Source of the DNA: a virus
Lineage: Duplodnaviria; Heunggongvirae; Uroviricota; Caudoviricetes
Strand: one strand, 5' to 3'
Virus record (IMG/VR): IMGVR_UViG_2917408641_000005
Length of the DNA: 39,157 bases
This document shows, in pieces, positions 9,001-12,000 of the stretch (position 1 is its first letter; the number at the start of each line of letters is the position of its first letter). A program made the position numbers.

Positions 9001-12000
9001 TATGAACCGGGAACTATTCAATCCCGAGTTTCTTTTTAAGAAACGAGGTTAACCACTGTTTGCCGACGTCTGTTACGAGCGTCATCGGGGCGTCGGCAAG
9101 GTCCTGTTTTATGCGCTCAAGAATGGGTTTTTGATGTAGTGCTTTCGCAAAATCATGACCATCTTGTGTAAGTCTGACACTGGTGCCTGAATATGAATAT
9201 CCGAGGCTTGTTGGGGTGAGACCAATGCTTTTTGCGGTGCCTGTTTCCAGATATCTGTTGCTGATAAAACCATTTTCAACCAGCAACAGAATATGGAAAA
9301 CCAGCTTCTGATGGCTGTCGCTGTGCCGCTGAGAACGATCCCAGCCGACATCTTCCAGTCGAATGAATGCGGTGTCGGCCTCCAGAAAAACATCAAATAT
9401 TCTGGCTATCTCGTCATAATCAATTTTCATATCTCATTCCTTAATATGAGAGGTGAGCAAATGAATCGCACATCGCTTATTAAATTAATCCATGTCGCCC
9501 GTCGGGAGCTACAACTCGACGATGACACTTACCGCGCCTTTCTGATGCAGAAAACGGGCAAAACCAGTTGCCGCGAGCTGACGGTTACGCAACTGGAACA
9601 GACGCTCGATGCAATGAAAGAACGCGGCTTTAAGAAGCTGAATAAACATCCACGTCGCCGCTTTAAGGAACATGTCACGCCCCGCGAGAAGGTGTACAAA
9701 GTCTGGCAGCAGATGGCAGAAGACGGTTTTATTACCGATGGCGGTGATGTGGCGCTGGATAAATATGTTCAGCGCCTGACCGCGAAACGCAACGGCGGAC
9801 AGGGCGTTTCCACACTGGCGTGGTGTCATGGCGACACGCTGCTGACAGTCCTCGAAACACTCAAGCAGTGGCACATCCGCTGTATTCGTGAAGCCTTTTC
9901 CCGTCACGGGCTTCCATTGCCGGTCAGTCCGTCCGGTCGTGAACTGCGCGGCTATGATGCCATGACGGCGGCTTATGCCCATGCCAGAAAGACGCGGAGG
10001 ATGGCACAATGACGGAAGATTTATTTGGTGATTTGCAGGATGACACCATCCTGGCACATCTTGACAATCCTGCAGAGGATACGTCACGCTTTCCGGCACT
10101 GCTGGCGGAGCTGAACGATTTACTACGCGGGGAATTGTCCCGGCTGGGTGTTGATCCTGCCCATTCACTGGAGATTGTTGTGGCTATCTGTAAGCATCTG
10201 GGCGGCGGTCAGGTCTACATTCCACGCGGTCAGGTTCTGGACTCGCTGATTCGGGATTTGCGTATCTGGAATGATTTTAACGGTCGCAACGTCAGCGAAC
10301 TGACCACCCGTTATGGTGTCACTTTCAATACGGTTTACAAGGCCATTCGCCGGATGCGACGGCTGAAATACCGCCAGTACCAGCCCTCACTTCTGTAAAC
10401 AGTAAAGCCGGTTAATCCGGCTTTTTTTACGTCCTCAATATCCTGTGATGAATAACCGTACCGGGGGAAATCATCATGGGTAAAGGCTGGAATGCATCCT
10501 TTCATCTTGGCAGACGTGAGCGGCTGCGTCAGGAGGTTTTGCACCGTGTCGCCGGTGGGCCACGGCCTGCGCCCCGCGACTATACCGGTCATGATGGCAC
10601 CCACGGCAGTTATTACATGAAAGGCTGGCAGTCAGTTGATATGCCGGAAATTCTTCATCATTGCCTGCTTTACAGGGAGAAACATTATGTCTGAGCGTTC
10701 TGCTCGTCAGTGGCCTGATTTTTTATCGGTGGTATTACTGGCGCTGTTATTGTGGATAAGTCTGTTTTGTGGCTGGCGCGCGCTGATGTTTTGCTGTGCC
10801 TCGGTTTTCAGTGTTGCTTTATGTGTTGCCGCTGATTGTCTGGATGCGCTGATAATGAGCTGCCGGGTGCCTGAACATTTTGCCCGGTTCGTCTGGCCTC
10901 TGACCTGGCTGGGGAGTCTGTCCGGGCTGGGATTAGCCGTGATGGCAACGTCTCAACTGAAAACGGGTCCTGAGCATGTCATCTGGGCGCTGGCCGGATT
11001 GCTGACGTTCTGGCTCTCCTTTCGTTTTCGCGCTCGTCTGTTCGGGTAAAGGGGCACCATGTACAGAAAATTCAGTGATGAATGTTTCGGGCCGTCCACG
11101 CTGATGAGTGCGATAAAAGTGATTGCCCTTGTGGTTCTGATAACCATCAGTGCCATGGTGTATCTTTCTGTCTGTTAACCAGGGGAAAATATGCAGCATG
11201 ATTTATTTGAACACGATCCGGCAATTCGCCAGTTAATCGGACATATTGATAACATCCCGGCCCCGGAACTGGAATCACGCTGGCCCCGTTCGGTGGTTGA
11301 TCTGATTGATGTTCTGGAAAACGAACTGAAACGCCAGAACGTCAGCAATCCCCGTGAGCTTGCCCGTAAACAGGCCGTTGCCCTGTCCTGTTTTCTGGGC
11401 GGGCGGCAGTTTTACATCCCCTGCGGCGATACGATCCTGACCGCGTTACACGACGATTTGCTTTACTGCCAGTTCAATGGTCGTAACATGGAAGAACTGC
11501 GTCGCCAGTATCGCCTGTCCCAGCCGCAGATCTACCAGATTATTGCCCGCCAGAGAAAGCTGCATACACGACGTCATCAGCCTGATCTGTTCTCACCTGA
11601 AAGCCAGAAATAACCGGCATCCTGCCGGTTATTTCCTGTCACCATAATCCCGCACCTGCCATCTGATTTTTTAGACTGCCATCAGAGCATTTTTTCAGGG
11701 AAGCATGATGGCGGGGATACCAAAAAAACTGAAAGCCGCACTGCTGGCGGCAACGATTGCCGGTGGCGGTGTGGGTGGTTATCAGGAAATGACCCGTCAG
11801 TCTCTGATCCATCTGGAAAATATCGCTTATATGCCTTACCGCGATATTGCCGGTGTGCTTACGGTCTGTGTGGGACATACCGGGCCGGATATCGAAATGC
11901 GCCGTTACAGCCATGCGGAGTGTATGGCTCTTCTCGACAGTGATTTAAAACCGGTTTATGCGGCAATCGATCGTCTTGTCAGGGTGCCGCTGACGCCATA

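What the first reader, a model, noticed from the sequence alone, without database searches (positions are those of the whole stretch)
9014..9430. Leftward 138-aa ORF with a good RBS in an otherwise rightward early/middle region
The 408 bp between the last early ORF and gemA have no plus-strand coding capacity but hold one minus-strand ORF with AGGA 7 nt before its ATG. It converges on and overlaps the upstream gene by 39 bp, and its start is only 30 bp from the gemA start, so any promoter would sit inside gemA. By recollection all Mu genes except c are rightward, so this is either an unannotated conserved gene or antisense element, or a chance ORF. Rare codons (ATA, AGA) weaken the case.
Basis: seen in the sequence. 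Interest (0 to 1): 0.45.

Follow-up and report, generated by a model that had tools for sequence, protein, structure and literature searches.

The report
Leftward winged-helix gene in Mu-like prophage
The leftward ORF is a real, conserved but uncharacterised phage gene (DUF2513 family, winged-helix fold) that fills a swappable slot just before gemA in Mu-like prophages; public genome annotation already lists it, so it is ordinary.

Summary
The ORF at 9014-9430 (-) is exactly as described: ATG start, AGGA 7 nt upstream, 39-bp overlap with the upstream gene, 30 bp from gemA. It is a genuine protein-coding gene, not a chance ORF. NCBI annotates the same gene at the same position in E. coli prophages as "DUF2513 domain-containing protein". 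It matches phrog_585 over its full length (E 2e-31) and has full-length homologs in 437 clusters. dN/dS is 0.08-0.21 in seven allele pairs. The AlphaFold model (pLDDT 90) is a winged helix plus three C-terminal helices. The gene is leftward, next to gemA, in prophages whose GemA is only 42-46% identical. Mu and SfMu carry an unrelated leftward gene (gp15) in this slot, and some prophages have it empty. So it is a swappable accessory cassette. It has lower GC (45.6% vs 52%) and terminator-like hairpins on both strands; one is embedded antisense in its own 3' third. Function is untested. My best guess is a small DNA-binding regulator made when the early promoter is silent. I found no promoter and no literature. 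Low interest.

The parts
9014..9430 (-). Coding sequence of a 138-aa DUF2513 / phrog_585 family protein. The fold is a winged helix (about residues 1-88) followed by three C-terminal helices.
9438..9442 (-). Shine-Dalgarno sequence AAGGA, 7 nt before the ATG.
   Evidence: Read from the sequence. Homologs also carry AAGGA, GAGGA or GAGAG 7-9 nt upstream, and the N-terminus MKID is conserved.
9431..9460 (.). 30-nt divergent intergenic region holding the ribosome-binding sites of both the ORF and gemA. It contains the inverted repeat TCTCAT-N8-ATGAGA (9432-9451).
   Evidence: Nearly identical in the L007, L036 and L039 alleles, whose proteins are only 59-62% identical. An inverted repeat of this size is expected by chance about 0.7 times in 170 nt (my estimate), so its meaning is open.
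8993..9460 (.). The swapped cassette relative to SfMu. Relative to Mu the difference starts at 8751.
   Evidence: blastn shows homology to SfMu ending at 8992 and homology to Mu and SfMu resuming exactly at the gemA ATG, 9461. GC is 45.3% against 52.0% for the window.
9059..9113 (+). Candidate terminator for rightward early transcription, embedded antisense in the 3' third of the ORF. The stem pairs 9059-9071 with 9088-9100 and is followed by the tail GTCCTGTTTTATG. It starts 7 nt after the upstream gene's stop codon.
   Evidence: Fold. Conserved in Mu-context alleles, with compensatory changes at 4 pairs and G-U pairs that form only in the + strand RNA. A hairpin with unrelated arm sequence sits at the same place in the Kluyvera and L016 alleles and was flagged by the scan tool. 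Absent in marine and lambdoid homologs. Caveats: in the window alone z is only -1.2, and the T-run is offset from the stem.
8958..8983 (-). Candidate terminator for the leftward gene: GGCGGCGACAGCCGCC plus ACTTTATCGT, about 30 nt after its stop codon and inside the upstream gene.
   Evidence: Flagged by the scan tool in the window and at the equivalent place in L044, whose protein is 49% identical. Present in all alleles examined. Caveats: it coincides with the conserved AAVAAL motif of the upstream protein, and z is only -1.7.
8741..9052 (+). Convergent upstream early gene (103 aa, phrog_1988). Its last 39 nt overlap the ORF.
   Evidence: phrog_1988, E 6e-52. PGAP coordinates. It diverges together with the DUF2513 gene between prophages. 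It is restricted to enterobacterial Mu-like prophages.
9461..10012 (+). gemA, the divergent neighbour.
   Evidence: Pfam GemA, E 8e-31. 96% nucleotide identity to Mu gemA.

Best explanation
The ORF is a genuine, translated, stand-alone accessory gene of Mu-like prophages, organised like a 'moron' (an extra gene cassette inserted between core phage genes). It encodes a 15.7-kDa protein of the uncharacterised DUF2513 / phrog_585 family: a winged helix-turn-helix followed by three helices.

It occupies a variable slot between the last semi-essential early genes and gemA. In that slot Mu and SfMu carry an unrelated leftward gene (gp15), and some prophages carry nothing.

Shown here:
- It is coding and under purifying selection.
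- It belongs to the family.
- It has a winged-helix fold.
- Its leftward orientation and position are conserved.
- The cassette is swapped between phages.
- Hairpins bracket it on both strands.

Inferred, not shown:
- Because it faces the early promoter Pe head-on, it is probably made from its own leftward transcript mainly when Pe is repressed, that is, in the lysogen.
- A hairpin 30 nt past its stop codon would end that transcript.
- A hairpin with a T-rich tail on the opposite strand, inside its own 3' third, would stop or attenuate rightward early transcripts just after the upstream gene, shielding the cassette.
- The protein most likely binds DNA, probably as a dimer, and acts as a small regulator. 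Its target is unknown.
For: Real gene:
- phrog_585 full-length match, E 2.4e-31.
- 19 full-length homologs at 29-99% identity and 437 representative clusters at E<=1e-3.
- Conserved N-terminus and conserved motifs FHxxLL and RLTxxGHDF.
- 7 of 8 differences from the SE11 allele fall at codon position 3.
- dN/dS is 0.08-0.21 in seven pairs.
- PGAP annotates it.

Slot and synteny:
- The gene has the same position and orientation where GemA is 42-100% identical.
- Mu, SfMu and many E. coli prophages have leftward gp15 instead.
- The slot is empty in L011 and L013.
- gp15 is not homologous to it.
- L055 has a near-identical backbone but only a 46% identical allele.
- GC is 45.6% against 52%.

Hairpins.

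Elsewhere the family sits in classic accessory positions. These are between lysis and terminase genes, next to xis/int, and in marine gene islands.
Against: - No sigma-70-like promoter was found for the leftward gene within 1.7 kb upstream, and there are no expression data.
- The Pfam DUF2513 score for this protein is below the gathering cutoff.
- DNA binding is inferred from fold alone. The protein is not basic (pI 6.2), and structural matches are generic (no Foldseek hit at E<=1e-3).
- Neither hairpin is more stable than shuffled sequence in the window (z -1.2 and -1.7).
- The covariation sample is small and the sequences are related.
- The leftward hairpin is confounded by a conserved protein motif on the other strand.
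- Long synteny with gemA across diverged phages fits a core-like role rather than a freely moving moron.
- Mor is known to be encoded on the early transcript (PMC2582627), so any terminator upstream of it must be leaky.
Confidence: 0.6

Rival explanations
1. The protein is a dedicated regulator of the phage's own development. It would bind at the gemA/mor boundary and control gemA-mor expression, and so the timing of the switch to middle transcription or the stability of lysogeny.
For: It is divergent from and immediately next to gemA in prophages whose GemA is only 42-46% identical. A winged-helix gene divergent from its target operon is a common regulator layout (general knowledge). The 30-nt intergenic region with its TCTCAT-N8-ATGAGA repeat is conserved between alleles that are 59-62% identical. 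The GenBank Mu record annotates a 'semi-early promoter' just upstream of gemA.
Against: Closely related phages, including Mu itself, lack the gene or have an unrelated one in the slot. It therefore cannot be needed for gemA/mor control. Family members also occur in lambdoid phages and marine islands with no gemA. The inverted repeat is no more than chance would give.
Confidence: 0.15
2. It is a prophage-encoded host-benefit gene, for superinfection exclusion or anti-phage defence, or a counter-defence gene. It would act on incoming phage DNA or proteins rather than as a classic transcription factor.
For: It sits in a variable accessory slot with an orientation that suits expression in the lysogen. 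Alleles are sharply diverged on a near-identical backbone (L055: GemA 95%, Mor 100%, DUF2513 46%). Marine homologs lie beside Cap15 plus a 337-aa gene (CBASS-like, CBASS being a known anti-phage system), SymE and antitoxin genes.
Against: No PADLOC model matches. There is no enzymatic or membrane domain. dN/dS is low, with no sign of diversifying selection. No literature exists on the family. Lying next to defence genes is weak evidence.
Confidence: 0.18
3. It is a chance open frame, or the region works only as an antisense RNA or DNA element and makes no protein.
For: Antisense ORFs of similar length are common in this window. No promoter was found. Conserved hairpins occur in the region.
Against: Full-length protein homologs go down to 29% identity in unrelated genomic contexts. 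Substitutions fall on the third codon position and dN/dS is 0.08-0.21. Start codon and ribosome-binding site are conserved. The AlphaFold model is confident. No Rfam family reaches its gathering score.
Confidence: 0.03

Closest known systems
DUF2513 (Pfam PF10711) / phrog_585 / YjcQ-like winged-helix proteins of phages and prophages
   Same: Full-length match to phrog_585. Same length and single-domain architecture. Intermediate relatives score above the Pfam DUF2513 cutoff, and one also matches YjcQ. PGAP gives it this name.
   Different: This protein's own Pfam score is below the cutoff (16.7 against 29.6 bits), so it is a divergent subfamily. No member of the family has a tested function, and no paper in the searchable library mentions it.
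Mu gp15 (Mup15, phrog_8747), the leftward ORF annotated in RefSeq Mu, D108-like prophages and SfMu (gp16)
   Same: Same slot, same leftward orientation, divergent from gemA, and its 3' end overlaps the upstream rightward gene (62 bp in Mu, 39 bp here). A hairpin follows its stop codon.
   Different: No sequence relationship (hhalign probability 0.3%). It is 88 aa rather than 138 aa. The updated GenBank Mu record drops gp15 in favour of a rightward ORF, Mu_54, so whether gp15 is a real gene is itself unsettled.
MarR / PadR / HxlR-type winged-helix transcription regulators
   Same: Winged helix-turn-helix topology. It has the 'LxxLxxxGLI' recognition-helix pattern and the 'RLTxxG' wing-to-helix pattern (my reading of the alignment). 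C-terminal helices could mediate dimerisation.
Phage 'morons' (Juhala/Hendrix concept: an extra gene with its own promoter and terminator inserted between core genes)
   Same: Present, absent or replaced between otherwise near-identical phages. GC differs from the backbone. Orientation is opposite to the surrounding operon. Terminator-like hairpins flank it.
   Different: No recognisable promoter. The gene stays at the same position over deep divergence (GemA 42%), which is unusual for a recently acquired moron.

Membership tests
DUF2513 (PF10711) / phrog_585 | Profile-HMM match at the family's threshold | tested here: inconclusive
   phrog_585: E 2.4e-31, residues 1-137 on profile positions 1-127 of 128. 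Pfam DUF2513: only 16.7 bits against a 29.6 cutoff. Relatives found with this family's profile do pass it: P0097 at 48.4 bits and P0020 at 29.7 bits.
DUF2513 (PF10711) / phrog_585 | Single-domain protein of about 130-145 aa with a winged-helix core | tested here: met
   Nearly all of the 150 listed representatives are 126-150 aa and align end to end. The AlphaFold model has a winged helix plus three helices.
MarR/PadR-type winged-helix transcription regulators | Winged helix-turn-helix fold | tested here: met
MarR/PadR-type winged-helix transcription regulators | Sequence membership in the MarR, PadR or HxlR Pfam families | tested here: not met
   No such family matched at E<=1 in the Pfam scan. 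The PDB profile search found no relative.
MarR/PadR-type winged-helix transcription regulators | Sequence-specific binding to a palindromic operator, as a dimer | not testable with these tools
   The only candidate is the 6-bp inverted repeat at 9432-9451, which is no more than chance would give. EMSA or ChIP is needed.
Phage moron (autonomous accessory cassette) | Present, absent or replaced among otherwise closely related phages | tested here: met
   Observed slot states are DUF2513, gp15-type and empty. The cassette boundaries are 8993 and 9460.
Phage moron (autonomous accessory cassette) | Own promoter | tested here: not met
   No sigma-70-like site on the minus strand in 9400-11200. Manual inspection of 9431-9600 found nothing better than 7 of 12 matches to the consensus.
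Phage moron (autonomous accessory cassette) | Own terminator | tested here: inconclusive
   A terminator-like hairpin lies at 8983-8968 (-) in the window and at the equivalent site in L044. However z is -1.7 and it coincides with the conserved AAVAAL motif of the overlapping gene.
Known anti-phage defence systems (PADLOC-DB) | Match to a defence-protein model | tested here: not met
   No PADLOC family matched at E<=1.
Mu gp15 (phrog_8747) | Sequence homology to Mu gp15 | tested here: not met
   hhalign probability 0.3%. The two share only position and orientation.

The most novel reading that the evidence does not exclude
The leftward gene and its antisense strand might form one regulatory device. 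In this reading the DUF2513 coding sequence doubles as a leaky intrinsic terminator for the Mu early operon just upstream of gemA-mor. Alleles that lack the internal hairpin carry a canonical terminator in the intergenic region instead. Leftward expression of a winged-helix protein in the lysogen would then be coupled to attenuation of rightward read-through into mor, the master activator of the lytic cascade. That would be an unrecognised checkpoint in Mu-like phage development.
Probability: 0.12. Interest if true: 0.5.

Novelty: already known. Interest (0 to 1): 0.22.

Why it matters
It matters little on its own. The gene is already annotated as a hypothetical DUF2513 protein.

Three things are useful:
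- It corrects the idea that the Mu early region is purely rightward.
- It defines a swappable leftward-gene slot before gemA with at least three states: DUF2513, gp15 and empty.
- It gives a concrete entry point for assigning a function to a widespread phage family (437 clusters) about which the searchable literature says nothing.

If the embedded terminator is real, it would also bear on how much early transcription reaches mor.

Tried and rejected
- **Chance ORF:** rejected on homology, selection and synteny.
- **Known RNA element:** Rfam gave only sub-threshold eukaryotic miRNA and snoRNA hits.
- **Homology between DUF2513 and Mu gp15:** none.
- **A functional partner in the upstream gene (phrog_1988):** it diverges together with DUF2513. 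However, SfMu has it without DUF2513. It is confined to enterobacterial Mu-like prophages. The convergent gene next to the Klebsiella phage homolog is unrelated. So I found no evidence for a two-gene system.
- **Domain fusions among longer relatives:** nothing informative.
- **Promoter search:** nothing on the minus strand.
- **Literature:** searches for DUF2513, PF10711, 'DUF 2513', Mup15 and Mu RNA-seq gave nothing relevant. The paper cited for Mu's 'semi-early promoter' (PMID 9454718) is not held.
- **Internal 10-nt perfect inverted repeat at 9254-9290 (z -5.3):** not conserved in other alleles, so I do not treat it as functional.
- **Integron-cassette idea for marine homologs:** the shared motif occurs only once per short contig, so it stays unproven.

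Full report
**What the window is.** From about position 1169 the window is a Muvirus prophage. It is 96-98% identical to Mu, D108, Mu_3F6 and SfMu over most of the first 25 kb. The finding lies between the last semi-essential early genes and gemA (Pfam GemA, E 8e-31).

**Observation.**
- The minus-strand ORF is 9014..9430, 138 aa, starting with ATG.
- AAGGA sits 7 nt upstream.
- It overlaps the convergent upstream gene by 39 bp; that gene ends at 9052.
- A 30-nt gap separates it from the gemA ATG at 9461.
- The plus-strand frames across the ORF carry 4-7 stops.

Two caveats apply. The gemA frame is open back to an ATG at 9293, but that extension matches nothing and homology to Mu gemA starts exactly at 9461. 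ORF length alone proves nothing, because about 20 other minus-strand ORFs of at least 130 aa lie antisense to known genes in this window. One is a 219-aa ORF over gemA/mor with no PHROG match.

**It is a real gene.**
- It matches phrog_585 end to end, E 2.4e-31.
- A search of 5.8 billion proteins gave 19 full-length homologs at 29-99% identity. Sources name several of them 'DUF2513 domain-containing protein'; they come from E. coli, Salmonella, Enterobacter, Pantoea and Oceanisphaera.
- A profile search of 1.84 billion representatives found 437 clusters at E<=1e-3. Almost all are single-domain proteins of 126-150 aa.
- The N-terminus (M1, I3, D4) and the motifs FHxxLL and RLTxxGHDF are conserved.
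- Against the SE11 allele, 7 of 8 nucleotide differences fall at codon position 3, giving dN/dS 0.09. The other five frames show no such pattern.
- Six further allele pairs give dN/dS 0.08-0.21.
- NCBI's PGAP pipeline annotates the gene at the same position in E. coli 22KM0354, MIN10, SE11, TUM9757 and PEC422.
- The protein's own Pfam DUF2513 score is below the cutoff (16.7 against 29.6 bits). Relatives reached with the family profile pass it, and one also matches YjcQ. It is therefore a divergent DUF2513 subfamily.

**What the protein looks like.** AlphaFold2 with an 18-sequence alignment gives pLDDT 90.1 and pTM 0.80. The model is a winged helix-turn-helix (about residues 1-88) followed by three helices.

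Across 100 diverse members the near-invariant residues are M1, H46 (in the presumed recognition helix), G70, R86 and L87 (wing), G91 and L98. The pI is 6.2. There is no PADLOC hit and no NCBIfam hit. No paper in the library mentions DUF2513 or PF10711.

**The slot.**
- Homology to SfMu stops at 8992, and homology to Mu stops at 8750. Both resume exactly at the gemA ATG. The cassette is therefore 8993-9460.
- In the same place RefSeq Mu has leftward Mup15 (88 aa), and SfMu and many E. coli prophages have its ortholog.
- Some prophages have nothing there.
- gp15 and the DUF2513 protein are unrelated.
- The updated GenBank Mu record replaces gp15 with a rightward ORF and annotates a 'semi-early promoter' before gemA.
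- The SfMu paper counts 4 leftward ORFs of 55 (PMC4406740).

**Synteny.** The DUF2513 gene keeps its place and orientation in prophages whose GemA is 80% identical (L007, L036-39; protein 59-62% identical). It also does so where GemA is only 42-46% identical (L044-48; protein 49-51% identical). In each case it is leftward, divergent from gemA, and overlaps the 3' end of a phrog_1988 gene.

In Kluyvera it lies between gemA and mor, still antisense. In L055 the backbone is almost the same as the window (GemA 95%, Mor 100%, gp12 98%), yet the DUF2513 allele is 46% identical and the upstream gene 37%. That points to allelic replacement.

Between the window and SE11 the reverse holds. The cassette is 98% identical while gemA has dS 0.59. 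GC is 45.6% against 52.0% for the window.

Outside Mu-like phages, family members sit in typical accessory positions. These are between lysis and terminase genes, and next to xis/int in lambdoid phages. Marine homologs sit in islands beside Cap15 (CBASS-like), SymE and antitoxin genes.

**Signals around the gene.** I found no sigma-70-like promoter for the leftward gene. Two hairpins stand out.

(i) *Leftward strand.* About 30 nt past the stop codon on the gene's own strand lies GGCGGCGACAGCCGCC followed by ACTTTATCGT (8983-8958). The scan tool flagged it here and at the equivalent site in L044, and it is present in every allele I checked. However, it encodes the conserved AAVAAL motif of the overlapping gene, and z is only -1.7.

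(ii) *Rightward strand.* On the phage-sense strand, inside the gene's 3' third, a 13-bp stem pairs 9059-9071 with 9088-9100 and is followed by a T-rich tail. It starts 7 nt after the upstream gene's stop codon.
- Other alleles have the same stem with cleaner tails: TTCTTTTTTG in L007 and TCTTTTTTAAT in L040.
- Four stem pairs show compensatory changes. Typically a synonymous change on one arm is matched by a Gly/Ser or Val/Ile change on the other.
- Two G-U pairs are invariant, and other alleles have further G-U pairs. All of them pair only in the rightward RNA.
- 84.6% of cells are paired, against 25-52% when the partner columns are slid. The covariation score is 0.194 against 0.136 in shuffles; 2 of 500 shuffles reach it.
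- The Kluyvera and L016 alleles have a stem of unrelated sequence (GCGCAGGAGG/CCTCCTGCGC) with a T-rich tail at the same place. The scan tool flagged it in L016.
- Marine and lambdoid homologs lack it.
- The L044-47 alleles also lack it. Instead they carry a canonical terminator (GGCGGTGCTGCCACACTGCC plus T8) in a longer intergenic region before gemA. The same hairpin is seen in Mu's gp15-gemA spacer.

There are caveats. In the window z is only -1.2 and the T-run is offset from the stem. The sample is 14 related sequences. I therefore treat both hairpins as candidate terminators that insulate the cassette, not as established features. Mor is known to be made from the early transcript (PMC2582627), so any rightward terminator here must be leaky.

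**Interpretation.**
- *Firm (about 0.95):* a real, conserved protein-coding gene of the DUF2513/phrog_585 family, in a swappable leftward-gene slot before gemA.
- *Likely but inferred (about 0.5):* the gene is transcribed independently, mainly when Pe is off, and its product is a small DNA-binding winged-helix regulator.
- *Rivals:* a dedicated regulator of gemA-mor (0.15), weakened because close relatives lack the gene. A defence, exclusion or counter-defence function (0.18), suggested by slot behaviour and island neighbours but with no model match. A chance ORF or RNA-only element (0.03).

**Verdict.** It is an ordinary accessory gene of unknown function, so interest is low. The most novel reading not excluded is that the coding sequence also serves as an early-operon attenuator upstream of mor.

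Noticed in passing
window 9059-9113 (+); L007, L040, L048, L015, L016, L020 equivalents: A conserved hairpin with a T-rich tail on the phage-sense strand, embedded antisense in the 3' third of the DUF2513 gene, just after the upstream gene's stop codon. It shows compensatory changes, and a second, unrelated stem sequence sits at the same place in the Kluyvera-type alleles. It is a candidate leaky terminator upstream of gemA-mor.
   Followed up: partly
L044 3952-3971 (- in locus, phage-sense strand); Mu L001 about 2255-2300: Alleles without the internal hairpin (L044-47) have a canonical terminator (GGCGGTGCTGCCACACTGCC plus T8) in a 70-nt spacer right before the gemA ribosome-binding site. 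Mu's gp15-gemA spacer carries the same hairpin with a weaker tail.
   Followed up: partly
window 9293-9460 (+): The gemA reading frame is open for 56 extra codons upstream to an ATG at 9293 (a 239-aa ORF). The extension has no PHROG match and is not homologous to Mu GemA, so it is probably spurious.
   Followed up: yes
window 9244-9299: A near-perfect 19-bp inverted repeat lies inside the ORF, with a 10-nt perfect core at 9254-9263 / 9281-9290. The RNA fold gives z -5.3. It is present in the window and SE11 alleles, partial in L044, and absent in L007 and L036. It is likely allele-specific or due to chance.
   Followed up: partly
window 9509-10168 (-): A 219-aa antisense ORF runs over gemA/mor and has no PHROG match. 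It shows that long antisense ORFs arise by chance in this genome.
   Followed up: yes
L055 5001-5684: A prophage with a backbone almost identical to the window (GemA 95%, Mor 100%, gp12 98%) carries alleles of both the DUF2513 gene and the convergent phrog_1988 gene that are only 46% and 37% identical. The pair appears to have been replaced together.
   Followed up: partly
L008 2899-5106; L009; L010: Marine homologs (40% identical) lie directly upstream of a Cap15-like gene and a 337-aa gene (CBASS-like), among SymE toxin, antitoxin and DUF3644 genes. In L008 an 87-nt promoter/operator-like module together with a small upstream ORF is repeated before both the DUF3644 gene and the DUF2513 gene.
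   Followed up: partly
L018 85-97; L023 692-704; L017 and L019 upstream regions: Marine homologs from different genera share upstream motifs: GCGGGCGTTAKAC, and a conserved leader ACCTTAG.CCGCACCTATAG.GGA.GAAATG. This hints at a mobile gene cassette, possibly integron-borne. The contigs are too short to test it.
   Followed up: partly
window 8557-8739 (+): The 60-aa early gene (Mu E14/gp13 ortholog, phrog_5584) is a four-Cys-pair zinc-ribbon protein. It has weak, sub-threshold similarity to Lar-type restriction-alleviation and DnaJ zinc-finger models.
   Followed up: no
Mu records L001 vs L003 (NC_000929 vs AF083977), 7896-8162: The two public Mu annotations disagree about the slot. RefSeq keeps leftward gp15 (88 aa). 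The updated GenBank record replaces it with rightward Mu_54 (55 aa) and adds a 'semi-early promoter'. Whether gp15 is a real gene is unsettled.
   Followed up: no
window 1-1169: The prophage left end is at about 1169, where similarity to D108 and Mu_3F6 begins. Before it lies non-phage DNA with a 377-aa minus-strand ORF that reaches position 1 of the window.
   Followed up: no
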